Source: a virus
Lineage: Duplodnaviria; Caudoviricetes
DNA: 64,000 nucleotides
Virus record (IMG/VR): IMGVR_UViG_3300014590_000001
Span: 96,001-160,000 of that record
Strand: one strand, 5' to 3'
Position numbers and translations under genes: made by a program
Notes under the pieces: generated by a model
What the model was told of the DNA's origin: nothing
Database searches by the model: none
What the model saw: only the letters and a program-made list of their open reading frames with translations
Shown: positions 39,278 to 55,179 of the stretch, piece after piece
Layout of the letters: each line of letters opens with the position of its first letter
Position numbering within the stretch: position 1 is the first letter of the stretch

Positions 39278-39808
39278 TTAGTTGTCCAGTTCGAATTCAA
39301 AGTCGCCTTTGCCTTTTTTCTTGGACTTTTTATCGCCCTTCACTTTCTTGTCAGCTTTCGCTGGCTTGTCAGCTTTTGCTTTCTTACCAGCTTTCGCAGG
39401 TTTTTCTTCAGCGGCTTTCTTGCCAGCTTTTTTGTCAGCCTTAGCTGGCTTTTCAGCTTTCTCTGCTTTGGCTTTCTTACCAGCCTTAGCAGGTTTTTCT
39501 TCAGCAGCTTTCGCTTTCTTACCAGCTTTCGCAGGTTTTTCTTCAGCAGCTTTTTTGCCTTTAGCCGGAGCAGCTTTGTCAGCCTTAGCAGCTTTTGCTT
39601 TCGGTTCAGCTTTTGCTTTAGCGGCTTTAGCCGGAGCAGCTTCGCCGTTGTTTTGCAGAGCTTCTACCTGAGCGGCCAGAGAAGCGCGACGTTCAGCCAG
39701 CTTAGACTGTTCACCGGAGATCTGTTCAGCAGTTTTGCCGAGATTCTTTTCAGATTTTTCAATCGCGCGGATTTCTTTGTTCAGAGCGGAGATAACTTTC
39801 TTAGACAT
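39278..39808 (-). CDS. Histone H1-like Lys/Ala/Pro-rich protein with N-terminal coiled coil
   Basis: Repeated KAAEEKPAKAGKKAKA units; GAGG RBS at MSKKVIS. Confidence 0.8.
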   Translation of the reverse strand: MSKKVISALNKEIRAIEKSEKNLGKTAEQISGEQSKLAERRASLAAQVEALQNNGEAAPAKAAKAKAEPKAKAAKADKAAPAKGKKAAEEKPAKAGKKAKAAEEKPAKAGKKAKAEKAEKPAKADKKAGKKAAEEKPAKAGKKAKADKPAKADKKVKGDKKSKKKGKGDFEFELDN

Positions 39809-39984
39809 AATAACCTCTATCAAAATAAATGTTCGTTGTGGAAAAACAGAAATCGTTTCTGCGTAGAAGTACATTAGCATGTTCAATGTACTTCTCGCAA
39901 TTTTTCTTCAAAGATTTTCGAAGAATTTTTTGGCCTGAGCTTAGTCCTAAAACCTATCAGGCCGCGCCACCGTCAGATGATTAC

Positions 39985-40812
39985 TTATTCGTCGTCTTCG
40001 TCTTCGTCTTCATCGTCGAAGTCTTCGTCTTCGTCATCTTCGTCTTCTTCGTCGTCACCAGCGAAGTGCGCTTCCAGAGCTTCGCGCAGTTCGTCTTCGT
40101 CTTTCTTTTTAGCCTGAGCTTTGGTGAACACGCCTTCTTCGATTGCTAAAGCGCGAAGTTCTTTTTCGTCGAGGTCGTCGAGATCTTGTTCATCTTCGTC
40201 CTCGTCGTCTTCATCTTCGTCTTCATCATCTTCATCGTCGCCGTCTTCGTCGTCTTCGTCGTCCGAGTCTTCATCATCCTCGTCTTCGTCGTCTTCGTCT
40301 TCGTCGTCACCATCTTCGTCGTCTTCGTCTTCGTCATCCTCTTCATCATCGGAATCGTCGTCAGAATCGTCGTCAGAATCGTCGTCGCCGTCTTCATCTT
40401 CGTCGTCTTCGTCTTCTTCATCTTCGTCATCAGAAGAGACACCCATCGCTTCGTTCAGCAGTTCGCGAAGTTCGTCTTCGTCCATGCTGCCAGCTTTTTT
40501 CTTGGTAGCAGCTTTAGACTTCACTGCGGCTTCACGCAGAGTTTCTTCGTCTGCGTCAGAAATATCGATCGCTTCTTCTTCTTCAATCGCTTCCACGATT
40601 TGAGCAGCGGTCACTTTCGCTTTTTTCTTACCAGCTTTAGCTTTCGGTTCAGCCTTAGCAGCTTTACCGCCTTTACCTTTAGCGGCAACAGTCAGACCAG
40701 CTTCAGCCAGCAGTTCGGCAACTTCGGAATCAGCAGATGCTTCAACCAGAATGCCAGCCATCTTAGCCAGAACTTCCATCGCTACGTTAGAGGTCTTTTT
40801 AGCTTTTGCCAT
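39985..40812 (-). CDS. Hyper-acidic protein with two 37-aa helical (HEH/Rho-N-like) repeats
   Basis: About 80-residue D/E tract flanked by DxxDxDEx(E/T)LR...DEDELRExL repeats. Confidence 0.85.
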   Translation of the reverse strand: MAKAKKTSNVAMEVLAKMAGILVEASADSEVAELLAEAGLTVAAKGKGGKAAKAEPKAKAGKKKAKVTAAQIVEAIEEEEAIDISDADEETLREAAVKSKAATKKKAGSMDEDELRELLNEAMGVSSDDEDEEDEDDEDEDGDDDSDDDSDDDSDDEEDDEDEDDEDGDDEDEDDEDEDDEDSDDEDDEDGDDEDDEDEDEDDEDEDEQDLDDLDEKELRALAIEEGVFTKAQAKKKDEDELREALEAHFAGDDEEDEDDEDEDFDDEDEDEDDE

Positions 40813-40870
40813 GATACTTTATTTCCTTTAGAAGAATGTTTAGTATTGAAACATCGTTATGTTCAATTAC

Positions 40871-41009
40871 TATTTACAGTATTTAAGAGAAAGTGTTTTC
40901 AAGCAACGCCACCGAAATTTATCAGCGGCGTTTCGACATTAACTGTTTACAGTTTTCTGTCTGACATAATCCGTTTACAGATTACGCCTCACGATATTAC
41001 TTTACAGAT
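40871..41009 (-). promoter_or_regulatory. Cluster of four CTGTAAA motifs around an 11-bp hairpin
   Basis: TTTACAG-containing sites at about 40871, 40944, 40972 and 41000; hairpin 40905-40932. Confidence 0.55.
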
Positions 41010-41026
41010 TTGCCTACGAAACTGGA

Positions 41027-41608
41027 TTAGAAGTTTTCGTCAGACTTTTTCTTTTTCTTGCCAGCTTTATCAGCTTTGCCGCCTTTGGAAGATTTCTCTT
41101 CCTTGCCGCCAGATTTTTTCTTTTCGGTCGCAACCGGAGTGCCGTACTTACGTGCAGCAACCGCCTCGTCAACAACCGCACGAACGTCGTAACCAGCAAC
41201 AGTGGTGTTAACGCGAGTGACTTCGCCAGTTTGAATATCGGTGCCGATAATCACGTCGTCTTTAACTTTTACAGTTTGACCACGGATGATCTGGACAGGC
41301 ATGTATGCGTCAACCAGCAGTTGACCCATTTCACCAGCTTCACCGATGAAGGTGATGATTTGCGATTTGGTGAAAGTGGTTACAACTTGTTTGGAAGAAC
41401 CAGCGCCTTTCTTGTGGCGAATCGTAACGCTACCATCGGAAGTAACGTCGATGATGAAACCTGAAACTTCGTGAGCGCCACGAGCAGAGATTTCAATATC
41501 GTGCGCCAGATCGCTTTGCTTGGATTTAACGCGAGCAATAGCGCCAGCTTTCTTTGCAATACGGTCGATACGTTTTGGAGCCAGTGCGGTGCTTTTAGAT
41601 TTGGACAT
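41027..41608 (-). CDS. Beta-rich hypothetical protein with basic termini
   Basis: GGAG RBS; KKKKKSDENF C-terminus. Confidence 0.8.
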   Translation of the reverse strand: MSKSKSTALAPKRIDRIAKKAGAIARVKSKQSDLAHDIEISARGAHEVSGFIIDVTSDGSVTIRHKKGAGSSKQVVTTFTKSQIITFIGEAGEMGQLLVDAYMPVQIIRGQTVKVKDDVIIGTDIQTGEVTRVNTTVAGYDVRAVVDEAVAARKYGTPVATEKKKSGGKEEKSSKGGKADKAGKKKKKSDENF

Positions 41609-41627
41609 TTCGAAACTCCAGTTTCAC

Positions 41628-42392
41628 TTACTTCATTTGTTCAAGGATAAATTCGACAACGGCATTTGCAGCGGCATCGAACAGTTCGGTATTAGACACT
41701 AAATCAATTAGTGACTTCGAATATTCTGTCACATTTTCATGGAACGTCTTCCATGAGACAGGAGATTCTTGCATATCGGAAATGACGTAGCGGATTGCCT
41801 CCCATTCCCAACAGTGCCTCAATTCTGACTGAACGTAAGCCCGAATGTTTTCACGTACTACCTGTTTTTCCTTTACAGATAATTCGATAAACATATTAGG
41901 CCAGCGCCCATCGAAACGATTTCGGAAAGTTTTATCAAATGCTTTCGCAGCATGAGACTGACGATTGGTGCTTAGTGTCGTGGCAGCGAGATAAACAACG
42001 ACAGTATGCAAACGAGATAGCGCTTTAATCAGCACATCCTCAACCAATCTTTCCGCAGGTGTTTCCGGAACATCCAGAATCTGTCTCTGAAGTTCAGCAA
42101 TCTGCCTATTAAGATTATCGACTTCAGAAGAATAAGTTTGAGAAATCGACTCAATCTTATGCAGAGCTTCGGCAGCATTCTTATTTGCTTGCTCTACCAC
42201 ATTACTATTTTTCAGTTGGAGGTCAGAAAAGTTTCTCTCCAAAACAGCCAACTGTATTTGCAACCTACCAACTTCCAACAAACGCTCATTATGCAGACGT
42301 TCGGTAATAGACAGTTGAGTTGTTTTTGTTTCGATTTCCTGTCTCGAAACGAACAATGCAGCATTAAGAGCATCGAGTTGTGAATCAGACAT
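41628..42392 (-). CDS. Coiled-coil hypothetical protein
   Basis: Start MSDSQLD, GAGG RBS. Confidence 0.7.
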   Translation of the reverse strand: MSDSQLDALNAALFVSRQEIETKTTQLSITERLHNERLLEVGRLQIQLAVLERNFSDLQLKNSNVVEQANKNAAEALHKIESISQTYSSEVDNLNRQIAELQRQILDVPETPAERLVEDVLIKALSRLHTVVVYLAATTLSTNRQSHAAKAFDKTFRNRFDGRWPNMFIELSVKEKQVVRENIRAYVQSELRHCWEWEAIRYVISDMQESPVSWKTFHENVTEYSKSLIDLVSNTELFDAAANAVVEFILEQMK

Positions 42393-42444
42393 TATCAATC
42401 CTCGTAAGTGGCGCAGGATATTCCCCACGCCACTTATTTACAGA

Positions 42445-45378
42445 TTACTCTTCGGATTCGTCTTCGTCTTCGTCAGCAACAATACCGCTAACATCAGACA
42501 GCAGAAGAGTCAGGTCGCCGCCGTTCGCAAACGCAGCGTCAGCAACGCCAGAGGACAGCAGAATCAGCGGCAGGTTAGTTGTGCCGAGAGACATTGCAGC
42601 TTCCATCAGATCGTCAGCTTCGTTTACACGCTGAACATCGTTCGTGGTGTAAGACGCAACTTCGATTTCGTCGCTTGCCATATCGCTAACAGATTTCACA
42701 ACGTTACGCAGCGCTTCGTCGGAAACCAGAGAACCAGCATTCAGCGTGAAACCAACGTAAACTTTCATATCGGTTTCGCCAATGTGGGAAACAACACGAT
42801 TGTATGCGCTAGTAACCAGAGCAGAAACTTTCTTCTTATCCAGACCCCAAATGCAAGGCAGTGCGATGTTCAGCACAACCGTATTCAGCACAGTGCTTTC
42901 AGTGTCCACTGTTACCGGACGAACAGAAACGTGTGCGTTGTACAGTGACGCCATCGGAACATGATCACCGATCAGTTCAGACAGATATTCTTCTGACAGA
43001 TCATCTTCGTCAATTTCGTCTTCGTCGTCGATGAAGTCACCAAGAACCAGACCGTGTTCGTAAGGATCTTGACCTGCTTCCAGACGGCCTTCATACAGCA
43101 GCGCGTCCAGTTGGCTACGCATAGTGTTGCCGAGTTTTTCGGAATAAGTTTCAACGTTGAAAGTTGAACGCTCAGACATGAACGGCAGCGCAGCAGAGCC
43201 GGACAGCAGATCGGTCGCTACAGTCAGAGGCAGATACATCGCACCTTCAACTTCGTCAGTCAGGTTGAACGGTACGCGGTAGTTAACACCGGATTGATCC
43301 GCGAGTTCTTCAGAAATATTTTCGAAGGTATCGCGATCAGTCAGGGTGAAGTTAACCAGCAGCGTTTGTTCTTGACGAACGCGCAGGAAAGTTCCGAGAT
43401 CGTTAGATGAACTTTCTTCAACGAAATTTTCGTCGTTTTGTTCTTCGGCTTCTTCCGCGTCGATATCATCGTTTTCCGCGTCGGCTTCTTCTTCCGCGTC
43501 GATATCCGCGTTTTCCGCGTCGGCTTCTTCGTCGTCTTCCAGATCTTCGGCTTCGTCTTCGTCATCAGCGACGTAGCCGTTTTCCAGACGATACTGTTCG
43601 AATTGTTTCAGCACGGCAACTTTGCCGTCGTTTTCGATTTCTTCACCAGCAGCTTCAAGCGCCGCTACACGTTGATCGTGAGACAGTTCGCCACCTTCAA
43701 ACTGGAACAGTTCGGTGTAGTCAACCGGATTAACTTCGTAACCAACGAATGACGGGAAGTGCGCCGCAACGGTTTCGTTTTCACCGAGTTCACGAACCAG
43801 TTGTTCGAATTCTTCAACGTCAGCGAATTCAGTTTCAGCCAGAGCATTCAGGATCAGTTCCAGAATGTCAGTTGCAGACTGCTTTTTGAAAGTAGTCAGG
43901 CCGAAACTTGCAGAGCGAGCGATAACGCGAACGGCATCGCGATTCAGTTCACCTTCGCCAACTTCAGCGGCAACCAGAGAAGCAAATTCAGAAACCGGAT
44001 CGAAGGTAGCGTCTTCGTCTTCGCCATCTTCGTCGTCCTGATCTTCATCGTCCTGATCTTCGTCGTCCTGATCTTCATCAGCGTCTTCAGAATCGTCTTC
44101 GTCTTCCGAATCTTCTTCAGAATCTTCTTCAGGAACGTCGTCGTTTACTTCTTCCGACTCAGCGTGGATGTAAGTCGCCAGCGCTTCGTTGCCGCCGAGT
44201 TTTTCGTTTGCTGCGATCAGGAACGCAAACAGTTCGTTGTATTCAAACGCACCAACCAGATCCAGCAGTTTGGTTGTCAGAGTTTCTTCGGTGTCAGAGG
44301 TAAACACTTTACCGCCAGCAACGAACACCAGTTTTTTCAGGCCAGCGCGATCCAGATTTGCATTCAGAAGAATACCAGCCAGAGTTTCGGCAGCGTCGAA
44401 TTCTTCTTCGTCGTCACCTTCTTCGGTTTCTTCTTCGCTTTCTTCCGCGTCGTCTTCAGTTTCCAGATCGTTTTCTTCTTCGCTTTCCGCAGCAGCTTCG
44501 CCAGCACCTTCGAGGAAGTCAGCACGTTCGCTTTGATACGCCAGTGCGATCTCTTCATCAGGCATTGCGCCGAGGTCATAGCCGATTGCGATCAGCGCTT
44601 CCGCTTTCTCTTCGATAGAAACAGAAGACTGATTTTCACGTTTGAAAACATCAAGAGCATTGCCCACTTTATTCCCCTTAATAGGATTGATCAGGAAGTT
44701 CACGCGAGATACTTCCGAGCGAACTACAAAACTTAATGCAGCACCTTCCAGCAGAACGACTTCAGCTTTGGTTTCGTTCCAGTTGATTACAGGCGCGTTG
44801 ATTTGGTCAACGTTAGCTTTCAGAGCAGGAACGAAATTCGCTTCGTTACGCTCGATTGCTTCCAGTTGGTCACGCAGAGAATTCACAACACCGTGTGAAC
44901 TACTTTCTGAAGTTACTGCGATTGCGTGTACGCCGAAACGAGAGGCATATGACGCTAACGTAGTATTATCATTTGCAGCTTTCTCTGCGACTTTAAACAA
45001 CGCTTCCGAAATAAGTTTCTGGAGGCGCTCTACGTTACCATTTACAGTATAACGCAGAATCATTGCCGCACTATCTTTCAGTTTCACGCGCTCGTCGATG
45101 GACGCGGCAGCGCCACCACGCGTACCAAGCACTTCCAGAACAGCGGCATCGTTGCCAGCGATAGCCAGAAGGTCAGTCAGACGGTTAAGCGCTTTGCCCT
45201 GCGCAACGGTTTGGGTAACGTTGCCGTTATTTTCGGCGCGGTAAATCTGATTACCATTTACAGTAGGGCACAGCAAAACAACAACAGTGCTTTTGGTTCC
45301 AGAAGAACCCTGATTCAGATTCTGCGCAGTCAGATTTGCATTGTGCGCGGCAGTTCCGAATTGTTGAGTTGAAGTCAT
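42445..45378 (-). CDS. Large acidic multi-domain protein (977 aa)
   Basis: Several D/E tracts, DEDQD and AENxDIDAEE repeats, short helical modules between them. Confidence 0.85.
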   Translation of the reverse strand: MTSTQQFGTAAHNANLTAQNLNQGSSGTKSTVVVLLCPTVNGNQIYRAENNGNVTQTVAQGKALNRLTDLLAIAGNDAAVLEVLGTRGGAAASIDERVKLKDSAAMILRYTVNGNVERLQKLISEALFKVAEKAANDNTTLASYASRFGVHAIAVTSESSSHGVVNSLRDQLEAIERNEANFVPALKANVDQINAPVINWNETKAEVVLLEGAALSFVVRSEVSRVNFLINPIKGNKVGNALDVFKRENQSSVSIEEKAEALIAIGYDLGAMPDEEIALAYQSERADFLEGAGEAAAESEEENDLETEDDAEESEEETEEGDDEEEFDAAETLAGILLNANLDRAGLKKLVFVAGGKVFTSDTEETLTTKLLDLVGAFEYNELFAFLIAANEKLGGNEALATYIHAESEEVNDDVPEEDSEEDSEDEDDSEDADEDQDDEDQDDEDQDDEDGEDEDATFDPVSEFASLVAAEVGEGELNRDAVRVIARSASFGLTTFKKQSATDILELILNALAETEFADVEEFEQLVRELGENETVAAHFPSFVGYEVNPVDYTELFQFEGGELSHDQRVAALEAAGEEIENDGKVAVLKQFEQYRLENGYVADDEDEAEDLEDDEEADAENADIDAEEEADAENDDIDAEEAEEQNDENFVEESSSNDLGTFLRVRQEQTLLVNFTLTDRDTFENISEELADQSGVNYRVPFNLTDEVEGAMYLPLTVATDLLSGSAALPFMSERSTFNVETYSEKLGNTMRSQLDALLYEGRLEAGQDPYEHGLVLGDFIDDEDEIDEDDLSEEYLSELIGDHVPMASLYNAHVSVRPVTVDTESTVLNTVVLNIALPCIWGLDKKKVSALVTSAYNRVVSHIGETDMKVYVGFTLNAGSLVSDEALRNVVKSVSDMASDEIEVASYTTNDVQRVNEADDLMEAAMSLGTTNLPLILLSSGVADAAFANGGDLTLLLSDVSGIVADEDEDESEE

Positions 45379-46649
45379 GATTTTTTCTCCATATCAATTT
45401 GCCAGCTACGACGATTCGATTTTTCAATAAACTGAATTCGACGAGACATTATGTTTGGACTTTCAACCAGTGCGGTTGTGAATCCCCAAGCGTTAAGCGA
45501 ACGAGCCAGAGCTTCAGGCTTCGTGCTAGTCATTGTGCGAAGTTTGCGACTCACACCTATCACAGCCAGATCCAGTGCAAAGAATTTTGCAGAACTTACA
45601 GGGCCGTTTTCGACCAACGCATCAACACATTCAGATTCTTGTTCACGAATCTGACGTTCGATTTTACGACGTTCCGCAAAATAACGTTTTGCAGTGCGTA
45701 GTGTGTTGCGCTCGCTATTGGTAAGCACTTCCTTCAGCGAAAGTTTCTCAACAGTCGATTTGTGTTGCGCTTGCAACTCAGGATCAACCTGTAAAGATTT
45801 TCTCAACTGAAGTAATTCTTTCGAACAGTATTGTTCGTACTGGTCAATAAGAATTTCGTACTCGTCAGAACCCAAATCCTGCATATGTTTAAGTTGCACT
45901 TCAGGATCTTTCTTAGGCCAGTACAGTGTTCCGAAAACTAACACGTATTGACCGTGAGTGCGCAGCGAGTATGCCGATAAACTTTTCGGCGTACCTACAA
46001 ACTCTTTCCGCATCACAGAGGTTGAAATCGGAATCGGGAATCCAGAATCTGAAAACACATAACCGTCTACCAGATTGAATTTCGATCCGTGATAATCAGC
46101 CAGCGAATAAACCATAACGGCGGCGCGACCTTCAGGCACTGCCATCGGTTTACCTTTTACCGCTTTACCTTTGGCGATGAATTTCTGCATCGTCAAAAGT
46201 TGTTCCGTGTACGGCGCACAGTACATGTACTCATGATCGTCCATCGAAAAAGCGTAGTTGGCAATGTACTGCTTAATCATTTTGCCGATATACTTAATCG
46301 CGACTTTCTGATCTTCTGCCTGTTCAAAGTGTTCGATGAACTCAGCAACTTGTTTATGCTTAGGAACACCTAAGCCCAAGTGAAACAGAATTGAAAGTTG
46401 TTCCAGAAGAATTCCGCGTTGACCGCGACGAAGATTGCGATACAGCCGCATCACCGTACTAGCACGAATGCGAGGATACAAAACATCTACGTGCTGTTCA
46501 CGCGCACCGTATTTCGTGCGAACGTGACGAACAGAACAAACGCTTTTGGAACTCTCCATATACTTCGGAGCAATCTCAACCAATTTCCAACCAGCAAGTT
46601 TTAATAGCTTTTGACGATCTTCAAACGTCAGTAGGTGCCCTAAAAACAT
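45375..46649 (-). CDS. Hypothetical protein
   Basis: 424-aa ORF with ATGA overlap. Confidence 0.75.
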   Translation of the reverse strand: MFLGHLLTFEDRQKLLKLAGWKLVEIAPKYMESSKSVCSVRHVRTKYGAREQHVDVLYPRIRASTVMRLYRNLRRGQRGILLEQLSILFHLGLGVPKHKQVAEFIEHFEQAEDQKVAIKYIGKMIKQYIANYAFSMDDHEYMYCAPYTEQLLTMQKFIAKGKAVKGKPMAVPEGRAAVMVYSLADYHGSKFNLVDGYVFSDSGFPIPISTSVMRKEFVGTPKSLSAYSLRTHGQYVLVFGTLYWPKKDPEVQLKHMQDLGSDEYEILIDQYEQYCSKELLQLRKSLQVDPELQAQHKSTVEKLSLKEVLTNSERNTLRTAKRYFAERRKIERQIREQESECVDALVENGPVSSAKFFALDLAVIGVSRKLRTMTSTKPEALARSLNAWGFTTALVESPNIMSRRIQFIEKSNRRSWQIDMEKKS

Positions 46650-47100
46650 ATTTATTCCTCAAATCGGCATCTGCAACTAAATCCTTATTACCATTTGCAG
46701 AAACCATTTCGAATAACGCATCAACAGTAGAGCGAGCTTCCACGCTCTGTAGATGTTCCCACGGCAGCACAACAACTGTCTCGCCGTTTAACTCAACCCC
46801 TTGCTGCGAAGGCAAAGGAAGCAAAGACAGAGGTTTCCCATTATCTTTACAGTATTTATTGAGCTTCTGCGTTATTTCTCGTAACAGCTTGTGATTCTTT
46901 TCTGAAACAACTTCCGGATCAACAACGCTCGTAATGTGCCAGTAGTTTGCAACATTGAAGAACGTTAGTTGAGTCACCATCGTTACGCTATCGCCAACAG
47001 ACGAAAGGTAGTAGGCAACAAGTTGTTCCATTTCCGCGCTTTCGTTTGGAGGAACATGTTTCGAGCGCGGAATACGTTTAACTGAAGATTTCTTTTTCAT
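46621..47100 (-). CDS. Hypothetical protein
   Basis: Start MKKKSS, ATGA overlap. Confidence 0.7.
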   Translation of the reverse strand: MKKKSSVKRIPRSKHVPPNESAEMEQLVAYYLSSVGDSVTMVTQLTFFNVANYWHITSVVDPEVVSEKNHKLLREITQKLNKYCKDNGKPLSLLPLPSQQGVELNGETVVVLPWEHLQSVEARSTVDALFEMVSANGNKDLVADADLRNKYVFRAPTDV

Positions 47101-47477
47101 GATTTGTCGTCCGGCATGGAATATGATTTCCAGATCTGGTTCACTAGTTCCAACCAATCGGCTTCAGAAATATCAGTTCCATAAAGTTCTTTATAGGCCG
47201 ACCAGAAACCGGGGCCGGGAATTTTGTCACCATACTTGCGCGAGATATAAAGCGCCGCTACTGGAGGGCGTCCAGCAGCAGCATCAATCTTCATTGTCTC
47301 ATACAGAACATTCCAGATTAAATCTGCTTGTTCCTGTTTTAAGCGCGTGAATTGCATCCCGTAAATCGCGGGAGAGAGATCGTTGAAAAACAAGTGGATG
47401 TTTTGTGTGGCAGCCAGAACTAATCTGCTATAGACCTGGCCGACAACCGCACGAACAAGAACATTTGTGTTTTCCAT
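47097..47477 (-). CDS. Small winged-helix-like protein (PPxxALx...PGxGF type)
   Basis: GRPPVAALYISRK...IPGPGFW. Confidence 0.6.
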   Translation of the reverse strand: MENTNVLVRAVVGQVYSRLVLAATQNIHLFFNDLSPAIYGMQFTRLKQEQADLIWNVLYETMKIDAAAGRPPVAALYISRKYGDKIPGPGFWSAYKELYGTDISEADWLELVNQIWKSYSMPDDKS

Positions 47478-48424
47478 TATTCACCGCCAGAAACTTTCTG
47501 CGCCTTACGGTTTTTGTGAACCAGTTCGAATTCACCGTTACCAAAGAAGCGATCAACAACAAGCGGAATAATCTCTTCCGGAATTGTCGGAGACAGCGCA
47601 GCGATAACCGCCTTGATCTGCGTTTTGTTCAGAACGATTTTGCCACTCTCCACAAATTTCTTCATGTGGCGCGGCATACTTTGTTCAGCAGCGAGCGAAT
47701 TATAATGCGCTTTGAGTGCATTAATCGCTTTGCGTACTTTCGGCACACCGTATTTTTCAACGATAGCGCTTGCAGTGTCCGGCAGATCTTTCACAGTGAC
47801 GTTCAGACTATTAGAAAGAATTTGGTTGAATTCTTTCCATGTGCGCGGATTGGTGATTGCGGCTTGCATCGCGCCAAACAATTGTTCGGCAGTTTCAAAC
47901 TGGCGATCAACCGGAGTTGATTTAGGCATTGTCACACGTTTCGGAACAGGTTTAATCTTTTTCTGTTCGTCAGTTTTCGGCTTGACGTTGCCATTTGCTT
48001 TCGCAGTTTTAACTTTCGTAGGTTTGGCTTTATCGCCGTTCACCTTCACAGGCTTATCAGATTTGATTTTGCCAGTTTTAACAGAGCGCGGTTTGATCAC
48101 TTTTGCCGGAGCGGTTGAGCGTTTCCATTCAGTGAAAGCCGGAGGCGTTTCAACCACTTCGCCTTTCTTAATCCGGCGCATCACATCGCGAGAATGAATG
48201 TGAATGTAACCATCCATTTTAACGATACGTTCAGGCGCAATATCTTTCAGAGCATCACGCGGCAATTCAACCAGAACTTTACCGCGACGAACCAGCGTAG
48301 CTGGATCAACAGTGCGAGAACTTCCATCAATGCTGTAACCTTTTGCGTTAACGCCGATAATACGAGAAGTTTTATCGTCAGCAGTGCGCAGAACAACGTT
48401 AACCAGATTTGCATTAGTAGTCAT
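47477..48424 (-). CDS. Basic protein, N-domain paralogous to 48497..50128
   Basis: Lys/Pro-rich linker; N-terminal 55 aa align with the neighbouring gene product. Confidence 0.8.
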   Translation of the reverse strand: MTTNANLVNVVLRTADDKTSRIIGVNAKGYSIDGSSRTVDPATLVRRGKVLVELPRDALKDIAPERIVKMDGYIHIHSRDVMRRIKKGEVVETPPAFTEWKRSTAPAKVIKPRSVKTGKIKSDKPVKVNGDKAKPTKVKTAKANGNVKPKTDEQKKIKPVPKRVTMPKSTPVDRQFETAEQLFGAMQAAITNPRTWKEFNQILSNSLNVTVKDLPDTASAIVEKYGVPKVRKAINALKAHYNSLAAEQSMPRHMKKFVESGKIVLNKTQIKAVIAALSPTIPEEIIPLVVDRFFGNGEFELVHKNRKAQKVSGGE

Positions 48425-48496
48425 GACAAAATACCTTTTATAAAATTGGGAGAGTTTGGAGCGCGGCGTAATTACCGCGCCAATCGAATTTATTTA

Positions 48497-50128
48497 TTAG
48501 CCTTTAGCCAGCAGAGCGCGGAGTTTTTTCTCGCTCATGTTTTCGGCGGCGCGAACTTTCGCAAGACCTTTCTGAACTACGATATCGCGCAGTTCGTCTT
48601 CGTCCAGATCTTCGTAATCGTCGTCTTCGCCTTCTTCAAAATCTTCGTCTTCTTCGTTGCTGTCTTCGCCGTCTTCGTCAGAAACAACTGGTGAGTATTC
48701 TGACAGGCCGGAAATATCTTCGTTGCTAAACGCTACAACTTCTTTACCGCCTTCTTCAATCACCAGCAGATCCGCGTCTTCATCCATGCCGACATAAATC
48801 AGAGTGTCTTCGCCGTCTGTCAGTTTCAGACCAGCAACCAGCGCAGATTCAGGAACGCCCCACAGTTCGGACAGCATGGACAGGTTTTCTTCTGTCACTT
48901 CTGAATCACGTCCGGCTAACTGCTTTTTAGTCAGCGAAACATATTCGTATTCTTCGCCGTCTTCGTCTTCACCGTCTTCAGAATCGTCATCGGAATCTTC
49001 GCCGTCTTCTGAATCGTCTTCATCCTCTTCGTCCTCTTCGGACTCTTCTTCTTCCTCTTCCTCTTCTTCCTCGTCTTCATCTTCATCTTCATCTTCAGCA
49101 ACCAATTCATAGTGGCTCAAAGATCCGGTGGAGATAGTGCGGAATTTTTCGGTTTCGGTGTTGAACAGTACAGCTTTGTTGTTATCGTCAACGCTTGCGC
49201 CGCAGAAAACAAACTGACCATCTTCACCTTCGCGAACCAGCAGAGTGCCAGCAGTCATATCGCTCGCATCAACGCCGAGGTGTTCAGAGATTGCAGCCGC
49301 CAGTTTTTTACCGACAGTTTTACCAACACGCGATTTGATTTTCTTCGCCAGTTCCGGAGAAATTTCATAACCGCCGTTGATTTCTTCAGGCTCAGGCTGC
49401 GCCAGTGCGTATTTGAAATTCATCGTTACGCGAATGTCGCCACCAGTGCGATCAAACTCAGTCGAGTAACCAACTTCGAATGCGTTTTGAATCGCCGCGT
49501 TGTTTTCGTCAAACTTCGCGAGAGAAGAATCTTTCGCGACTGCCATCAGACGTTCAGTAATAACTTTCGCCAACGGTTCGCCAACTTCAGACAGTGACAC
49601 GGTGCCTTTCGGTTTGATACCAAAGTCGCTCATTTCAACGCCAGCGTTTTTAGCGCCACGACGTTTAACAGTGCGACCAGTTGTTTCTTCTACATCAACA
49701 TCCGCAGCTTTGCGGCGAACTTTAGAAGGTTTCTCTTCAACGTCTTCAACGTCTTCAGCAGGTTTGCGACCGGAAGTTTTGCGGCCAGTAGTTTTAGCTG
49801 GCTTGTCTTCAGCAGGTTTGCGACCGGAAGTTTTCTTGCCAGTTGCTTTAGCAGGTTTTTCTAAGAAAGCGTCAGTGCCAACTTTTTTCTGCATCGCTTT
49901 GTCGGAAAATTCAACGTAGCCGTTTCCGGTGTCGTTCAGTTCACGCAGAGACACGTTAGGGATTTCGTAAAACATCGCGCCCTTTTTCGCAACCTGCTTG
50001 CTGTTCACACGAACAGAGCGGTCTGCAACTTTGTAGCCAGTAGCTACAGCAGCGGTGATTTTAGTTTTGGTGCCGTCCAGCAGAACAATTGATTTACCGA
50101 TCAGAGCTTTGTTAGTTGCGATTGCCAT
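48497..50128 (-). CDS. Bipolar protein: basic N-half, acidic C-half, internal duplication, terminal helical repeat
   Basis: KTSGRKPAED repeats, E/D tracts, C-terminal DYEDLDEDELR...LRALL. Confidence 0.85.
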   Translation of the reverse strand: MAIATNKALIGKSIVLLDGTKTKITAAVATGYKVADRSVRVNSKQVAKKGAMFYEIPNVSLRELNDTGNGYVEFSDKAMQKKVGTDAFLEKPAKATGKKTSGRKPAEDKPAKTTGRKTSGRKPAEDVEDVEEKPSKVRRKAADVDVEETTGRTVKRRGAKNAGVEMSDFGIKPKGTVSLSEVGEPLAKVITERLMAVAKDSSLAKFDENNAAIQNAFEVGYSTEFDRTGGDIRVTMNFKYALAQPEPEEINGGYEISPELAKKIKSRVGKTVGKKLAAAISEHLGVDASDMTAGTLLVREGEDGQFVFCGASVDDNNKAVLFNTETEKFRTISTGSLSHYELVAEDEDEDEDEEEEEEEEEESEEDEEDEDDSEDGEDSDDDSEDGEDEDGEEYEYVSLTKKQLAGRDSEVTEENLSMLSELWGVPESALVAGLKLTDGEDTLIYVGMDEDADLLVIEEGGKEVVAFSNEDISGLSEYSPVVSDEDGEDSNEEDEDFEEGEDDDYEDLDEDELRDIVVQKGLAKVRAAENMSEKKLRALLAKG

Positions 50129-50193: not shown

Positions 50194-50249
50194 ATAGTGC
50201 ATGAAACTCTCAGAAGTTTCAATCAACATTTTAGACACTATTTTGCAGA
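50194..50249 (-). promoter_or_regulatory. Box-type promoter 2
   Basis: TCTGCAAAATAGTGTCTAAAA-N6-TTGAAA-N17-CACTAT. Confidence 0.75.
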
Positions 50250-50272
50250 GTTCCCAAAGGTGGAGACTTTGC

Positions 50273-50355
50273 AAAAAAGTGTGGGCATCCATTCCCACAT
50301 AAAGGTTCCAAACAAACTACTTGATACTTGAGGGTTCAGAGCGTTGCCGCCCTGT
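50273..50355 (-). ncRNA. Candidate small RNA, about 83 nt
   Basis: Own box promoter; 5' GCAA-tetraloop hairpin; 3' TGTGGG/CCCACA hairpin with CTTTTTT; no enclosed ORF. Confidence 0.6.
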
Positions 50356-50361
50356 CCTTAT

Positions 50362-50417
50362 ATTCTAGCTGAACGGAGCGGCAAATGCTATCGGTATTTT
50401 GGACACTTATTTGCAGA
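50362..50417 (-). promoter_or_regulatory. Box-type promoter 3 (drives the candidate sRNA)
   Basis: TCTGCAAATAAGTGTCCAAAA-N6-TAGCAT-N17-TAGAAT. Confidence 0.8.
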
Positions 50418-50427
50418 CTTTGAAACT

Positions 50428-50976
50428 TCAGCCCTTGCGAGATTTCGCTTCAGGCATCTGCTTTTTAGGTGGAACCGTATATTTCGATTTCTTAGGTTCC
50501 TTGAATTTCTTCATGCCGTGGCGTGTGCCGTGGATTTTGTTAAAACGATACGTTGCATCCGCAATAAAGCAACGCTTCGAGAAACTGTCTTTTTTAGGCA
50601 GAACCGAATCATCGACAATGCCAAGCGCTTTTACTTCAGCGAGCAGATCTTTAAACTCAGGGAAGAAACCGCACTGGTTATTCATGATCTCGTCAGTTTT
50701 GAAAGGATCGATTTCAACATAACGAATCATGTGAAGCATTTCTTTATTCACACCAGTGACCGCCGAAACTTGTTTTTGAACAATGTCAGACGATTTGGAT
50801 AAATCAGCCAGCGCAGCAAATTCTTTTTCGGTCAGGCCGATTGTTTTCAGAATCGCTTTCTTGCTGTCCTTGTCGCTATGTTCGCTCAGGAATAATTCGA
50901 ATGCTTTTGACAAAGCAACAGAGAGCAGAGCGGCTTGTGATTGGGTTGAGGCTTCGGTGAACTTCATTGTAGTCAT
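50428..50976 (-). CDS. Hypothetical protein with basic C-tail
   Basis: 182-aa ORF directly downstream of promoter 4. Confidence 0.75.
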   Translation of the reverse strand: MTTMKFTEASTQSQAALLSVALSKAFELFLSEHSDKDSKKAILKTIGLTEKEFAALADLSKSSDIVQKQVSAVTGVNKEMLHMIRYVEIDPFKTDEIMNNQCGFFPEFKDLLAEVKALGIVDDSVLPKKDSFSKRCFIADATYRFNKIHGTRHGMKKFKEPKKSKYTVPPKKQMPEAKSRKG

Positions 50977-51014
50977 CCTTTGTAAGTCTAAGCGGTATTG
51001 CTTAGTGAGTCTTT

Positions 51015-51070
51015 ATAGTATGAAAGTTTCGTGTCCAAAACAACCTGTATTTTGGACACTGTTTTGCAGA
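51015..51070 (-). promoter_or_regulatory. Box-type promoter 4 with an inverted extra half-box
   Basis: TCTGCAAAACAGTGTCCAAAA-N6-TTGTTT-N17-TACTAT; second GTGTCCAAAA on the + strand at 51031-51040. Confidence 0.8.
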
Positions 51071-51076
51071 CTTGCT

Positions 51077-51442
51077 TTATACAAGGCCGTCCAGTTTTCT
51101 GTCTAACTCTGCCTGAATCTTTTTGTGTCGTTCACGCTCGCCCAGCATACGGAAGAAAACGAATGTTCCCCACAGCCAGAATGTGAGCGGCAGAGGCACA
51201 ACGATCAGAATCCAGAAAGGCAGCAAAAGCAGCCACGCGAAAAACTGCGCGATTGTCATGTGCCAGCTTAATTCGCAAATCTTTTCCCACAGCGATTTAA
51301 AGCATTTGCCGATTCCATCCGCGACCAACGCCCAACAATCCAAAAGACTAGGCTTGTACGATCCAGCGCGAACCACGCCGTAGGGATTGTGGAAAAACTG
51401 ATAAATGGTTGCGCTATTTTTTACTTCTTCAATTGTTGGCAT
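51077..51442 (-). CDS. Membrane protein
   Basis: Long hydrophobic stretch FFAWLLLLPFWILIVVPLPLTFWLWGTFVFF. Confidence 0.7.
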   Translation of the reverse strand: MPTIEEVKNSATIYQFFHNPYGVVRAGSYKPSLLDCWALVADGIGKCFKSLWEKICELSWHMTIAQFFAWLLLLPFWILIVVPLPLTFWLWGTFVFFRMLGERERHKKIQAELDRKLDGLV

Positions 51443-51819
51443 CAGAATCTCGCCTCCCCTAAAACAATTGAGCCGTCATCAATTTTCGCTTCTCGAATTT
51501 TATCTCCGCGATCCGGCAGACGAACGATGTAGGTTGCATGTTTCCATCCGCGATGTGAGTTAACAGGCTCAGTTGTGCGGTACATAATAAGAGGATGAAG
51601 ATCGTCAGAATGAAACGAATTGTAATCTGCAACGAATTTTAATTGTGCCTCTTCGCTAAAATTCGTTTCGCCCACAAAAGCCATCGCACGAATCAAATCA
51701 ATTCGAACAACGCCGCCAGCTTTGCTGGGTTTAGTTTTGAGTGCGAACGTCTGATATTTCTTACGACGATCTTGTGGATGCAGATTGTGATTTTCAACCA
51801 GCGAATCAATGTAGCCCAT
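51442..51819 (-). CDS. Hypothetical protein
   Basis: Start MGYIDS, GAGG RBS. Confidence 0.7.
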   Translation of the reverse strand: MGYIDSLVENHNLHPQDRRKKYQTFALKTKPSKAGGVVRIDLIRAMAFVGETNFSEEAQLKFVADYNSFHSDDLHPLIMYRTTEPVNSHRGWKHATYIVRLPDRGDKIREAKIDDGSIVLGEARF

Positions 51820-51820
51820 T

Positions 51821-52054
51821 TTATTTTCCTCTTCCGTAGCCGCCGATTGCCTCTTGCACAGCAATATGTTTAAGAATGCGATGATGTAGAGCTTCGCGTG
51901 AACTCCCCTCAAAATCGCTAGGGATAACATTTGCAGCAACCATTATTTCTTTGAGTTGTTGCGTGGATAAATGCGCGAACTCTTCAGCAACATTTTCCAT
52001 AGAAGGATTGTTGCGTAACTTGCTACTGATTTGCATTGCCATGTTGTTTCTCAC
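51821..52054 (-). CDS. Small hypothetical protein
   Basis: Fills the gap in the operon; LSTQQLKEIM...SREAL helical pattern. Confidence 0.65.
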   Translation of the reverse strand: MRNNMAMQISSKLRNNPSMENVAEEFAHLSTQQLKEIMVAANVIPSDFEGSSREALHHRILKHIAVQEAIGGYGRGK

Positions 52055-52416
52055 TCTTCGTCAGGTTCGTCTTCAGGTTCAGCGCCTACCATCATATCAA
52101 GTTCTTCTATGGATAAATCAAGAGAACTTTCAACGCGACGAGCAGAAAGACGTACCCAATTTCTCGTCTGACTGATAAGCAACAATGCGTACTGGCCGCA
52201 GTCAACAGGGAAGATTAAATATCCACGTTGCCGCAAATGGAATTCCAATTCTTGAAGAACACTCGGTTCGATATAGCTGTTTCTATATCCAAACAGTCCA
52301 GCTACAACGTTGCCCGTAATAATGATACGAGTTATCGTTTTGTTCTTTTCTTCTGCATATGATTTCATGTTAAGAACAAGCAGGGCAGCGACAGCTTCAG
52401 CAGTACGGAATTTCAT
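52051..52416 (-). CDS. Hypothetical protein
   Basis: GGAG RBS. Confidence 0.7.
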   Translation of the reverse strand: MKFRTAEAVAALLVLNMKSYAEEKNKTITRIIITGNVVAGLFGYRNSYIEPSVLQELEFHLRQRGYLIFPVDCGQYALLLISQTRNWVRLSARRVESSLDLSIEELDMMVGAEPEDEPDEE

Positions 52417-52436
52417 AAAATTTTCTCCAGAAAGTT

Positions 52437-52463
52437 AAAAAGGGCAGCACCGAAGTGCCACCC
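52437..52463 (-). terminator. Intrinsic terminator
   Basis: GGGTGGCAC-TTCG-GTGCTGCCC-TTTTT. Confidence 0.88.
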
Positions 52464-52471
52464 GAATTTAT

Positions 52472-53248
52472 TTACGCTTGCTCAGATTTGAAAGCATGTA
52501 CAGCAACCATCATCGAGTCGATGTTAGAAAATTCTGCATCGGAAACTTTGATTTTGTTTGCGATTGCGAAATCTTGAAGTTGCTCAAGATTCCAACCCTG
52601 CATTGCTTTCGCAGCCTTGCGAACGTTTTCTGGACGACCATCATATTCATGGTCAATGTCACGATCATCAACTACTGTTTGATCTTCGTCTTCGTCTTCG
52701 TCCTCACCCCCAAAACCATGTTCAATCAGTTTTTCCGTTGCAGGACTAATCTGGTAGTCATCACTACCTCTGGTGCGACCGATACGAGCACGGACAACTT
52801 TCGTTTTCGTATCAGGCAGACGAATGAACAGACAGTCAGGAGAATCCCAATCAACGAACACCCACGAACCGTAAACGTCAGCAATATCCAAACCGGATAA
52901 TGTGTCGTTGATCAGATCATGCAATCGCGATACGCGAGTGTTTTTCAAAGTGCGTGACATAATCAAATTGATTTCACGCATACTAACTTTGATGATGTTT
53001 TGATCGGAGCCTTCGAGATTATTCTCTTTGGCTATCCGCCATTTCTCTAAAACCGAAACAACAAAACTATTCAAACGGTCTGCATCTGTAATGCGCGCAG
53101 AAATCACTGCTTCAGAATTCTTTGCGCGAACAGAAGCGGGAGCGCCTTTTGCTTTAGCGAGTTTCTTTGCACCAGCTTTAGTTGCATCCGCGTTCTTTTT
53201 AGCACGACCAGCTTCGATTTGTTTTGCGATCACTTTAGGATTAGGCAT
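52472..53248 (-). CDS. Hypothetical protein, paralogue of 54358..55179
   Basis: Start MPNPK (AAGGA RBS); shared core domain. Confidence 0.8.
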   Translation of the reverse strand: MPNPKVIAKQIEAGRAKKNADATKAGAKKLAKAKGAPASVRAKNSEAVISARITDADRLNSFVVSVLEKWRIAKENNLEGSDQNIIKVSMREINLIMSRTLKNTRVSRLHDLINDTLSGLDIADVYGSWVFVDWDSPDCLFIRLPDTKTKVVRARIGRTRGSDDYQISPATEKLIEHGFGGEDEDEDEDQTVVDDRDIDHEYDGRPENVRKAAKAMQGWNLEQLQDFAIANKIKVSDAEFSNIDSMMVAVHAFKSEQA

Positions 53249-53340
53249 TTTGTAGTTCCTTTGGGATTTACGTTGAAAGCATGTAAGGTGAAAACCCCGT
53301 AAATCCTTACACGCTTGTTGAGGCAAGTGCCTCGGTCTTT

Positions 53341-53396
53341 ATTGTCTCAAAATAACGAGGCGATAGCCACCGATATTTTGGACACTGTTTTGCAGA
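53341..53396 (-). promoter_or_regulatory. Box-type promoter 5
   Basis: TCTGCAAAACAGTGTCCAAAA-N6-TGGCTA-N17-GACAAT (TGn extended -10). Confidence 0.75.
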
Positions 53397-53434
53397 CTTG
53401 CTAGGTCTTGTTATGCGTCTTCTGAAAGGCACAT

Positions 53435-53503
53435 AAAAAGACGGCTTGATTCATCACCTCCGTCCGTGGAGGCATTCGTTGGGGAAATCCAGAATCAAGC
53501 CGT
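53435..53503. ncRNA. Candidate three-way-junction structured element
   Basis: Perfect 12-bp closing stem ACGGCTTGATTC/GAATCAAGCCGT enclosing two hairpins. Confidence 0.45.
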
Positions 53504-53543
53504 GAGCAAGTTAGCTCTAATAGTTGCACAACCTTTCTAAAAC

Positions 53544-54335
53544 TTATTCCTCGTCTTCTTCTTCACCTTCTTCGACGAGATCTTCAATGATGTTATCGCC
53601 ATCGAATTCGTCAGTGAAAACTTCTTCTTCATCTTCGAAATCGAAATCTTCTTCGTCGTCTGCATCCAGTTCGAGAGACAATGAAGAGTCAACGCGATCT
53701 TTATTTTCCATGTAGGCGATTGCTTCACGCGCCATTGAAGTGAAACACATATCAGGATTCACTTTCAGTTCGTGCAGCATGAATTTGTCTTGCCACTCTG
53801 CGCGATTCTTTTCAACGATTTCGTCAACGTGATCTTCCAGTTCCTCCCCGCCGCGAATTGGCAGTTCGAGGAATTTCATTACGTGGCGCACTTCGCGAAT
53901 CGGAGACTCGCACAACATTTCATAGAGCGATTGACGTTCAATGCTGTCACGCGCTTCAATCAAAAACGCTTGCAGTTTTTCGCTGTTACGTACTGCAACG
54001 CGCTTGACCGCTTTCTTTGTAGGCACAAGTTTATCGTGCAAAGAAATCAGCGGAACTTCGGCGTATGCGTTTCCGATTTCGAGAATCGTACACATATCGA
54101 CAAAACTTTCTGCGTCCTGCATTGGATCGATTTTCACAACGCTGCGCATCACGACTTGCGAATCCAATTCGCTACCATCAGAGTAGATGATAGAAACAGG
54201 TAAGGCGCTTCCGTAGATCTTCGCAATTGCTTGCGACAGCAGAAGGCCAGGAACGTGCGGGGCAATTAACTTTCCGTTCAGCAGGAAAGAATAAGTGATA
54301 CCACAGAAACCGGTTTTACGTTGAATAGTTAACAT
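53544..54335 (-). CDS. Hypothetical protein with acidic C-tail
   Basis: 263-aa ORF. Confidence 0.8.
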   Translation of the reverse strand: MLTIQRKTGFCGITYSFLLNGKLIAPHVPGLLLSQAIAKIYGSALPVSIIYSDGSELDSQVVMRSVVKIDPMQDAESFVDMCTILEIGNAYAEVPLISLHDKLVPTKKAVKRVAVRNSEKLQAFLIEARDSIERQSLYEMLCESPIREVRHVMKFLELPIRGGEELEDHVDEIVEKNRAEWQDKFMLHELKVNPDMCFTSMAREAIAYMENKDRVDSSLSLELDADDEEDFDFEDEEEVFTDEFDGDNIIEDLVEEGEEEDEE

Positions 54336-54357
54336 AGCAAGATACCTACCTTTAAGT

Positions 54358-55179
54358 TTATTTTGATTGAGCGATCAGGAATTCTAACAGAGCAGCATCT
54401 GGATTGTTTCTAGCTTTAAGCGTTATGCCCATATTGTCAGCAGCATCGCGAACGCTTTCAAAATCCAGCAAATCCAAAAGTTCATTAACTGCTTGTTGCG
54501 TAGTTCCTTCTAGCTCGCCAATATTCAGAGTTGTTGCGAGTTCGTTCAACACTTCAAGATCTTGAGAGAGTAAAACGAACTTCAATTGTTGGTAAGTCCC
54601 CGAAGTTTGTCGCCGTTCTTCAGGAGTAAGGCTATCAACTTCAGCAATACGTTTGCGTGTATTGCGAAGTGAGTCAGGAGCTTTCTGTACATCAGCAGGA
54701 GAAAATTCTTCCTGCAACTTATTTTCAGTTTTAACAGGATTGGCTTTAGGTTTTGCCTCTTTAACTGGTTTCTCTTTCTTCGGCTTTTCTTCCGGTTCAG
54801 CGAAATCAGTTTCACCCAATTCAACCAACTTGCCTGTATAACCATTTTTAGAATAGACAATACCAACTACGCTTGTTGCAGAATGCGGCAATTCAATCAA
54901 AGTAAAATCAGGTGCATCATGTTTCACCAGCGCCCAATCTCCGTGAATAGCGCGGAAATTAAAATCGCCAATAACTTTTTCTACCAGTTGCGGAAGTTTA
55001 CGACGAGGCGTGTTTTCCAAAACTTTGTGAAGATCCGCAACAGAAAACTTAATGTAGTTGTCGTTAAACAACTCGCCCTTTTCGTACAGTCCACGGCGAA
55101 CAGCTTCGTTAGCTTCGAAGATACTTACCAGTGCCGCACGTACACCATCAAAATCACTCTGACTTGTTACAGCAGACAT
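54358..55179 (-). CDS. Hypothetical protein, paralogue of 52472..53248
   Basis: GAGG RBS; shared core domain. Confidence 0.8.
   Translation of the reverse strand: MSAVTSQSDFDGVRAALVSIFEANEAVRRGLYEKGELFNDNYIKFSVADLHKVLENTPRRKLPQLVEKVIGDFNFRAIHGDWALVKHDAPDFTLIELPHSATSVVGIVYSKNGYTGKLVELGETDFAEPEEKPKKEKPVKEAKPKANPVKTENKLQEEFSPADVQKAPDSLRNTRKRIAEVDSLTPEERRQTSGTYQQLKFVLLSQDLEVLNELATTLNIGELEGTTQQAVNELLDLLDFESVRDAADNMGITLKARNNPDAALLEFLIAQSK

What the first reader, a model, noticed from the sequence alone, without database searches (positions are those of the whole stretch)
39278..55179. 16-kb island of histone-like polycations and hyper-acidic scaffolds: candidate phage chromatin or condensate system
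Seen: an H1-like K/A/P repeat protein (39278) lies beside a protein with an ~80-residue D/E tract (39985). The island also has a 977-aa acidic multi-module protein (42445), a basic protein (47477), a bipolar basic/acidic protein (48497) and further proteins with acidic tracts (52472, 53544). No enzyme motifs are recognisable, and several genes sit under the two promoter classes. Known: oppositely charged disordered proteins (H1 with prothymosin or nucleoplasmin-type chaperones) form dynamic complexes and coacervates, and acidic phage proteins can be DNA mimics. Inference: a shell-free system that compacts or shields phage DNA and organises replication, or a battery of DNA mimics.
Basis: partly seen in the sequence, partly recalled or inferred. 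Interest (0 to 1): 0.8.

Follow-up and report, generated by a model that had tools for sequence, protein, structure and literature searches.

The report
Jumbo-phage charged-protein core module
A family of giant bacterial viruses without a protective nuclear shell keeps a block of ten uncharacterised genes (a histone-H1-like basic protein, very acidic partners, a probable nucleic-acid-binding barrel and an apparently dead DNA ligase) that most likely organises the viral DNA during replication, though nobody has tested this.

Summary
The charged proteins are real, but the 16-kb 'island' is two things. 39278-50128 is a ten-gene core block of Salmondvirus/'Lupandier' jumbo phages, in the same order in 19/19 related loci. 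Its five-gene heart (45375, 42445 C-domain, 41027, 39985, 39278) is kept as far as PaBG, Lu11 and NCTB. 50428-55179 is variable. The scan already reported the 41027-39985-39278 trio in PaBG and an Erwinia phage. New here: (1) 41027 models as two small beta-barrels (weakly Sm/Hfq- and OB-like), and 7 of 74 homologues carry a fused poly-D/E tail, two also an H1-like tail; (2) 45375 models as an NAD-ligase adenylation fold (Z 10.8) lacking the catalytic lysine, so 'no enzyme motifs' is not quite right; (3) repeated two-helix modules link 39985 and 48497. No chimallin or PhuZ was found. The polyacid gene shares its promoter class with SSB, ligase and sigma, and PaBG orthologues are absent from its 14-protein virion list. 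Best reading (0.45): an intracellular DNA-organising/replication scaffold tuned by polyanions. Binding, condensation and shielding are untested.

The parts
39278..39808 (-). H1/AlgP-like polycation, 176 aa: N-terminal coiled-coil-like segment (1-52), K/A/P repeats (54-166), short acidic-aromatic tip
   Evidence: orthologues net +26 to +32 in 19 loci; PaBG gp124, Lu11 gp165, Motura gp329, NCTB 079
39985..40812 (-). Polyanion, 275 aa, net -106: basic/helical N-terminus, two ~42-aa two-helix modules (40435-40572, 40054-40191) around a D/E tract
   Evidence: PaBG gp125 and Lu11 gp164 lack the modules but keep the tract
40870..40952 (-). Tandem class-B promoter-like boxes (CTGTAAA) in front of the polyanion gene
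   Evidence: 2-4 copies in 19/19 relatives and 2 in Lu11, where the record calls them middle/late promoters
41027..41608 (-). Hallmark protein, 193 aa, net +13: two interlocked small beta-barrels (Sm/SH3-like and OB-like) with a conserved basic hairpin (R64 H65 K66 ... K73) and basic tails
   Evidence: 66 profile hits; AF2 pLDDT 83.7; VIA Z 4-5.7; conservation; fusions
41628..42392 (-). Coiled-coil-rich protein, 254 aa, fast-evolving; class-B box at 42443
42445..45378 (-). Acidic multi-module scaffold, 977 aa, net -167: N-domain, duplicated helical module (322-390, 455-530) between D/E tracts, conserved C-domain (652-968) of unknown fold; start overlaps the 45375 stop
   Evidence: internal repeat hhalign 88%, E 3e-6; C-domain to NCTB 076 E 5e-5 and L040 E 1e-3, weak to PaBG gp127 and Lu11 gp162
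45375..46649 (-). Pseudo-ligase, 424 aa, net +17: Sel1-like hairpin, NAD-ligase adenylation fold with a coiled-coil insert, motif-I lysine deleted, no OB/HhH/BRCT domains
   Evidence: AF2 pLDDT 85; VIA Z 10.8, rmsd 3.5, 168 aligned to PR1 split ligase and Z 8.6 to LigA; motif I; Sel1 E 2e-4
46621..47477 (-). Two small neutral core proteins (46621-47100, 47097-47477), unknown
   Evidence: 19/19 loci; 47097 to NCTB 074 E 5e-6
47477..48424 (-). Basic protein, 315 aa, net +28; N-terminal domain paralogous to that of 48497
   Evidence: hhalign 97%, E 5e-11
48497..50128 (-). Bipolar scaffold, 543 aa: beta-rich N-domain, basic linker, duplicated ~90-aa domain separated by a 55-residue D/E tract, C-terminal copy of the 39985 two-helix module (48500-48622)
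   Evidence: repeat 94%, E 1e-7; positional counterparts PaBG gp131, Lu11 gp157, NCTB 073
50228..50420 (-). Two class-A boxes (GTGTC(C/T)AAAAT core, about 25 bp) upstream of 48497; others at 38778, 51059, 53385
   Evidence: in front of this gene only in Salmondvirus-like loci (4/19)
50428..55179 (-). Variable genes under class-A boxes, probably not part of the module; includes paralogues 52472/54358, acid-tailed 53544 and membrane protein 51077
   Evidence: patchy outside Salmondvirus; paralogy E 1e-12; hydropathy
34942..38675 (-). Neighbouring type II topoisomerase subunits, both with K/A-rich N-terminal tails; topoisomerase I-like and DnaB genes follow

Best explanation
The ten-gene block builds an intracellular, shell-free nucleoprotein scaffold for the replicating phage genome. 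Shown: conservation, order, charges, fusions, predicted folds, promoter motifs. Inferred steps: (1) 39278 oligomerises through its N-terminal coiled coil and condenses DNA with K/A/P tails, as AlgP, PhaF or linker histones do; (2) 41027 binds nucleic acid through its basic barrels and works with the D/E tract, to which it is fused in some relatives; (3) 39985 and the tracts of 42445 and 48497 act as protein polyanions that compete with DNA, keeping the assembly fluid, as prothymosin-alpha or polyphosphate do; (4) the pseudo-ligase 45375 is a non-catalytic DNA-binding adaptor that links the scaffold to the replication enzymes, as the inactive ligase domain of poxvirus A20 does. Whether it forms droplets or shields DNA from nucleases is open.
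For: Same order in 19/19 loci with narrow net-charge ranges while sequences diverge to about 30-50%. The five-gene heart stays together after rearrangement away from gyrB in PaBG and Lu11 and at about 22% identity in L040. Fusions of barrel with D/E tail in 7 of 74 homologues, with an H1-like tail in 7, both in 2, and in cultured phage Motura gp335 (Foldseek E 9e-4). Sm/OB-class and ligase-class folds. Class-B boxes shared with SSB, sigma factor, DNA ligase and the topoisomerase I-helicase operon, absent within 200 nt of head genes. No chimallin/PhuZ. PaBG gp124-131 absent from its 14 virion bands (PMC7412058 Table 1). Precedents: PMC11894788 (AlgP, Hfq, polyP), PMC11142717 (A20), PMC13401047 (phage condensate).
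Against: No binding or localisation data exist. The 41027 fold matches are weak (Z under 6). Sm/OB barrels and K/A/P tails bind RNA as well as DNA (PMC12818456). D/E tracts also occur in head-module and other genes of this genome, so composition alone is not specific. The virion list is Coomassie-level and from another phage. The portal gene also has a class-B box.
Confidence: 0.45

Rival explanations
1. An RNA-side module: 41027 is an Hfq-like RNA chaperone with its acidic tail supplied in trans, 39278 binds mRNA leaders as PhaF does, and together they favour phage transcription or translation, perhaps in condensates.
For: Hfq/Sm proteins recur among 41027's fold neighbours (Z 4.3-4.9). PhaF's KPAA tail binds RNA and activates translation (PMC12818456). 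SPO1 Gp27 forms transcription condensates (PMC13401047).
Against: It does not explain the conserved link to a DNA-ligase-derived protein or the position among topoisomerase and helicase genes. SSB/RPA-type OB folds score equally.
Confidence: 0.2
2. A defined replisome or recombination accessory complex, with the pseudo-ligase as processivity adaptor and the acidic tails as ordinary protein-docking tails; no chromatin or condensate.
For: Ligase fold without catalytic lysine parallels poxvirus A20 (PMC11142717); 45375 and 42445 overlap or abut in all relatives.
Against: It does not need an 80-100-residue pure D/E protein or a stand-alone H1-like protein with dedicated tandem promoters.
Confidence: 0.15
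3. Virion-related proteins: prohead scaffolds, internal core proteins or DNA-packaging aids.
For: Acidic-tract proteins flank the major head gene of this genome; portal and terminase genes lie 11-16 kb downstream; processed scaffolds would be missing from virion gels.
Against: No structural-family match, no collagen repeats or membrane segments in the core, not in PaBG virion bands, separate from the head and tail operons.
Confidence: 0.1
4. A battery of DNA mimics or anti-defence proteins.
For: Strong negative charge; the variable 50428-55179 genes look like host-interaction genes under class-A boxes.
Against: Ocr-, Ugi- and Gam-type mimics are folded with patterned surfaces (own knowledge); here charge is in low-complexity tracts. 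Strict conservation across hosts from Dickeya to Pseudomonas is unlike anti-defence genes.
Confidence: 0.06
5. Unrelated genes whose charge bias reflects a lineage-wide tendency to grow low-complexity tracts.
For: Acidic-tract genes alone are not significantly clustered (p=0.15).
Against: Gene fusions, shared modules, conserved net charge and order after rearrangement.
Confidence: 0.04

Closest known systems
Pseudomonas AlgP / PhaF and eukaryotic linker histone H1 tails
   Same: 39278 has a predicted N-terminal coiled coil, a disordered K/A/P repeat tail and an atypical tip, the AlgP layout described in PMC11894788
   Different: No family-level sequence match; no H1 winged-helix domain; phage-encoded next to its own protein polyanion
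H1-prothymosin-alpha; Hfq or AlgP with polyphosphate
   Same: Polycation, polyanion and (weakly) Sm-type barrel in one unit
   Different: The polyanion is a protein with helical modules and can be fused to the barrel; no interaction shown
NAD-dependent DNA ligase adenylation domain (phage PR1 split ligase 9I5I/9HU3; E. coli LigA)
   Same: Fold, Z 10.8 and 8.6; motif-I region aligns
   Different: Catalytic lysine deleted here (kept only in PaBG and NCTB, R or T in others); no OB/HhH/BRCT; Sel1 hairpin and coiled coil added; the phage has a separate intact ligase
Poxvirus A20/A22 processivity factor
   Same: Inactive ligase-derived domain in a viral replication setting (PMC11142717; 8WPF_B Z 6.4)
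   Different: A20 keeps an OB fold; no partner known for 45375; analogy only
Chimalliviridae phage nucleus
   Same: Jumbo phage that must organise a 250-kb genome
   Different: No chimallin, PhuZ or multisubunit RNA polymerase match; this group uses its own sigma factor
SPO1 Gp27 condensates (PMC13401047)
   Same: Precedent for phase separation in phage infection
   Different: Transcription factor-driven; no relationship tested

Membership tests
Chimalliviridae nucleus system | Chimallin shell gene (and usually PhuZ) | tested here: not met
   phiKZ gp54 and gp39 give no tblastn hit and phmmer E above 0.2 against the complete genome; single-sequence queries
Linker histone H1 | K/A/P-rich basic disordered tail | tested here: met
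   residues 54-166 of 39278, net +27
Linker histone H1 | Winged-helix globular domain | tested here: not met
   no Pfam match; the only non-repeat segment is a 52-residue heptad-like helix
AlgP/PhaF-type bacterial H1-like proteins | N-terminal coiled coil plus C-terminal K/A/P repeats | tested here: met
   architecture only (PMC11894788)
AlgP/PhaF-type bacterial H1-like proteins | Sequence homology and DNA/RNA binding | tested here: inconclusive
   no Pfam family above cut-off; binding cannot be tested
Prothymosin / nucleoplasmin-type chaperones | Long D/E tract | tested here: met
   39985
Prothymosin / nucleoplasmin-type chaperones | Nucleoplasmin core fold; binding of a polycation | tested here: inconclusive
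   41027 model lists only small beta-barrels; binding of disordered chains is not testable
Sm/Hfq | Sm fold | tested here: inconclusive
   Hfq Z 4.9, rmsd 2.7, 51 aligned; tied with SH3 and OB folds
Sm/Hfq | Ring oligomer that binds RNA | not tested
NAD-dependent DNA ligase | Adenylation (nucleotidyltransferase) fold | tested here: met
   Z 10.8, rmsd 3.5, 168 aligned; ligases fill the top of three searches
NAD-dependent DNA ligase | Motif I KxDG lysine | tested here: not met
   two-residue deletion in the window clade; R or T in most PaBG-like members
NAD-dependent DNA ligase | OB, HhH and BRCT domains | tested here: not met
   the protein ends with the adenylation fold; a separate partner subunit is not excluded
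HeH fold (SAP/LEM/Rho-N) | Helix-extended loop-helix of about 40 aa matching clan profiles | tested here: inconclusive
   single members hit SAP E 0.0095, Rho_N 0.066, Ish1 0.14, LEM 0.19, all below cut-off; no convincing PDB hit
DNA-mimic proteins (Ocr, Ugi, Gam) | Folded acidic surface that inhibits a DNA-binding enzyme | not testable with these tools
   acidity lies in low-complexity tracts
Virion structural proteins | Presence in purified particles | tested here: inconclusive
   PaBG orthologues not among 14 bands; low sensitivity, different phage

The most novel reading that the evidence does not exclude
This jumbo-phage group builds a shell-free replication compartment: a phage-encoded coacervate of H1-like polycation, protein polyanions and a barrel protein, tied to the replisome by a dead ligase, which compacts the genome and limits access of host nucleases. 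It would be a second route to genome compartmentalisation besides the chimallin nucleus.
Probability: 0.2. Interest if true: 0.88.

Novelty: new variant of a known kind. Interest (0 to 1): 0.62.

Why it matters
How jumbo phages without a chimallin shell organise and protect 200-300 kb of DNA is unanswered. This block gives five to ten named, conserved candidates in cultured phages (JA11, Y3, PaBG, Lu11, Motura), with specific predictions. A phage gene pair that recreates the H1/prothymosin or AlgP/polyphosphate charge logic, and a ligase-derived pseudoenzyme in a phage, would each be new in the papers I could search.

Tried and rejected
Pfam and PHROG scans named no island protein. ESM Atlas gave nothing usable for 41027 or the 42445 C-domain. 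Foldseek against PDB gave no match at E 0.001 or better for either model; the ligase call rests on VIA Z-scores and the consistency of hits. Sequence profiles alone did not detect the ligase relationship (hhalign P 0.035). PDB sequence searches for the 42445 C-domain and its helical repeat were blank. The complex prediction of 45375 with the 42445 C-domain gave no verdict, which is no evidence either way. The two halves of 41027 are not demonstrably a duplication (P 0.022), and the 48497 domains do not match them. The 42445 repeat does not match the 39985 module. I saw two-helix look-alikes by eye in 52472, 51821, 54358 and 53544, but the profile did not recover them. The sigma-70 scan was at chance level. 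Literature searches found no paper on these proteins or on the PR1 ligase; the Y3 virion paper was not available. Plus-strand ORFs over the tracts are antisense shadows.
Full report
Setting. The window lies in a complete 256,657-bp phage genome, about 77% identical over this region to Dickeya phages JA11, JA13, JA29 and JA33 (Salmondvirus). These belong to the 'Lupandier' group with Y3, Yoloswag, NCTB, PaBG and Lu11 (PMC7412058). All genes in question are annotated as hypothetical. phiKZ chimallin and PhuZ find nothing in the genome, so a shell-free life cycle is likely.

Observation. The ORFs, strands and charges are as reported, with corrections. 39278 probably starts at 39808 (176 aa, +27). 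39985 is net -106. 42445 is -167, 47477 is +28 and 48497 is -67. 52472 has only an 8-residue acidic run. Acidic tracts are common in this genome: 12 genes, 4 of them here (scan p=0.15). Acidic and K/A/P-rich genes together cluster at p=0.012 with strict thresholds. GC content is unremarkable.

Boundaries. Ten genes, 48497 to 39278, keep their order in all 19 related viral loci (41628 detected in 18), with tightly held net charges, for example +26 to +32 for 39278 and -84 to -106 for 39985. In the enterobacterial phages and NCTB they precede gyrB/gyrA. In PaBG (gp128-124) and Lu11 (gp161-165) the last five stay together although moved away from gyrB; the same five occur in metagenomic loci L040 and L043. 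Orthology of the 42445 C-domain to the PaBG and Lu11 genes rests on position plus weak profile scores. Genes at 50428-55179 are patchy outside Salmondvirus and are probably a separate, variable region. The scan had already noted the three-gene end of the block in PaBG and in an Erwinia phage; I had found the PaBG/Lu11 conservation before seeing those notes.

41027. A profile search found 66 relatives. The AlphaFold model (pLDDT 83.7) shows two small beta-barrels joined by long strands. One matches Hfq/Sm/SH3 folds and the other OB/SSB folds, all at Z 4-5.7, which gives a class but no family. The conserved residues are basic: R16, K19, K20, R64, K66, K73. Of 74 homologues, 7 carry a fused poly-D/E tail, 7 a K/R/A/P-rich N-terminal tail and 2 both. 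Cultured phage Motura gp335 has this triple layout and is a structural match (E 9e-4). The features that are three genes here are thus one polypeptide elsewhere, the best evidence that they act together.

45375. By eye the PaBG-like members showed ligase motifs. The model (pLDDT 85) returned nucleotidyltransferases at the top of three searches, best the adenylation subunit of the phage PR1 split NAD ligase (Z 10.8, rmsd 3.5, 168 residues) and bacterial LigA (Z 8-8.8). The motif-I lysine is deleted in this clade, replaced by R or T in most PaBG-like members and kept in PaBG and NCTB. There is no OB domain; a Sel1-like hairpin (E 2e-4) and a coiled coil are added. The phage has a separate intact NAD ligase. 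I infer a pseudoenzyme. Poxvirus A20 is a precedent for an inactive ligase domain used as a replication adaptor (PMC11142717).

Acidic scaffolds. A 42-aa two-helix module occurs twice in 39985 and once at the end of 48497, in all enterobacterial relatives and NCTB; only sub-threshold SAP, LEM and Rho-N hits support an HeH fold. 42445 and 48497 each have their own duplicated domain between tracts, and 47477 shares its N-terminal domain with 48497. This is the layout of multivalent scaffolds (inference).

Regulation. Class B (CTGTAAATA, 'middle/late' in the Lu11 record) sits in 2-4 copies before the polyanion gene in 19/19 loci and in Lu11. It also precedes SSB, the sigma factor, DNA ligase, the topoisomerase I-helicase operon and portal, but not the head genes within 200 nt. 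Class A, a 25-bp box followed by sigma-70-like hexamers, occurs 11 times (0.6 expected), all in one 50-kb minus-strand arc, and precedes 48497 and gyrB. Neither is shown to be a promoter.

Virion or not. None of PaBG gp124-131 is among 14 virion bands (PMC7412058; numbering checked). The core has no collagen repeats or membrane segments. This is weak evidence: the gel is insensitive, and acidic proteins do flank the head gene.

Mechanism. The best-supported reading is an intracellular DNA-organising and replication scaffold: polycation and barrel bind DNA, polyanions compete and keep it dynamic, and the pseudo-ligase couples it to replication enzymes (0.45). It would work like AlgP or Hfq with polyphosphate, or H1 with prothymosin (PMC11894788), but it is not a member of those families. 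Rivals: an RNA-side module (0.2; PhaF tails bind RNA, PMC12818456), a plain replisome accessory complex (0.15), virion morphogenesis (0.1), DNA mimics (0.06), coincidence (0.04). Phage condensates have one precedent in SPO1 (PMC13401047).

Verdict. Interest 0.62.

Noticed in passing
window 34942-36612 and 36609-38675: Both type II topoisomerase subunits begin with K/A/P-rich tails (maximum 62% and 57% in 40 aa), resembling the H1-like protein; they could target the enzyme to the same assembly.
   Followed up: no
G000 192649-193866 (L047:1650-2867): The SSB (PHROG 15004) has both strongly acidic and strongly basic blocks (25% D/E, 24% K/R) and a class-B box.
   Followed up: partly
G000 23457-25388 and 27408-27878 (L045): Very acidic proteins (net -115, -32) flank the major head gene; the larger is labelled 'ATPase' in PHROG but its position suggests a head scaffold.
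   Followed up: partly
G000 12373, 161073, 171976, 173303: Further unnamed proteins with long D/E tracts outside the block.
   Followed up: partly
window 38778-86263 (genome arc, minus strand): Class-A 25-bp boxes are followed at a fixed distance by weak -35 and good -10 hexamers, suggesting activator-dependent sigma-70 promoters.
   Followed up: partly
window 52472-53248 and 54358-55179: Paralogues sharing an N-terminal domain of about 100 aa (E 1e-12), also in Yoloswag and fHe-Yen9-02.
   Followed up: partly
L004:19330-19914; L011:27928-29040: Probable mis-annotations: NCTB 079 ('mechanosensitive channel') is the H1-like protein; Lu11 gp158 ('polyphosphate kinase') is an acidic low-complexity protein within the block.
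   Followed up: partly
L010:15802-16680; L011:15534-16316; L012:14537-15343: PaBG gp151 and Lu11 gp142 (acidic tracts) and Motura gp337 (net +41) are further highly charged proteins just upstream of gyrB.
   Followed up: no
window 51077-51442: The only clear transmembrane protein in the stretch; conserved in JA29.
   Followed up: no
window 39282-39671, 40121-40603, 40186-41211, 48804-49112: Plus-strand poly-Ser or Phe/Val ORFs are antisense shadows of the charged tracts and mislead simple gene callers.
   Followed up: yes
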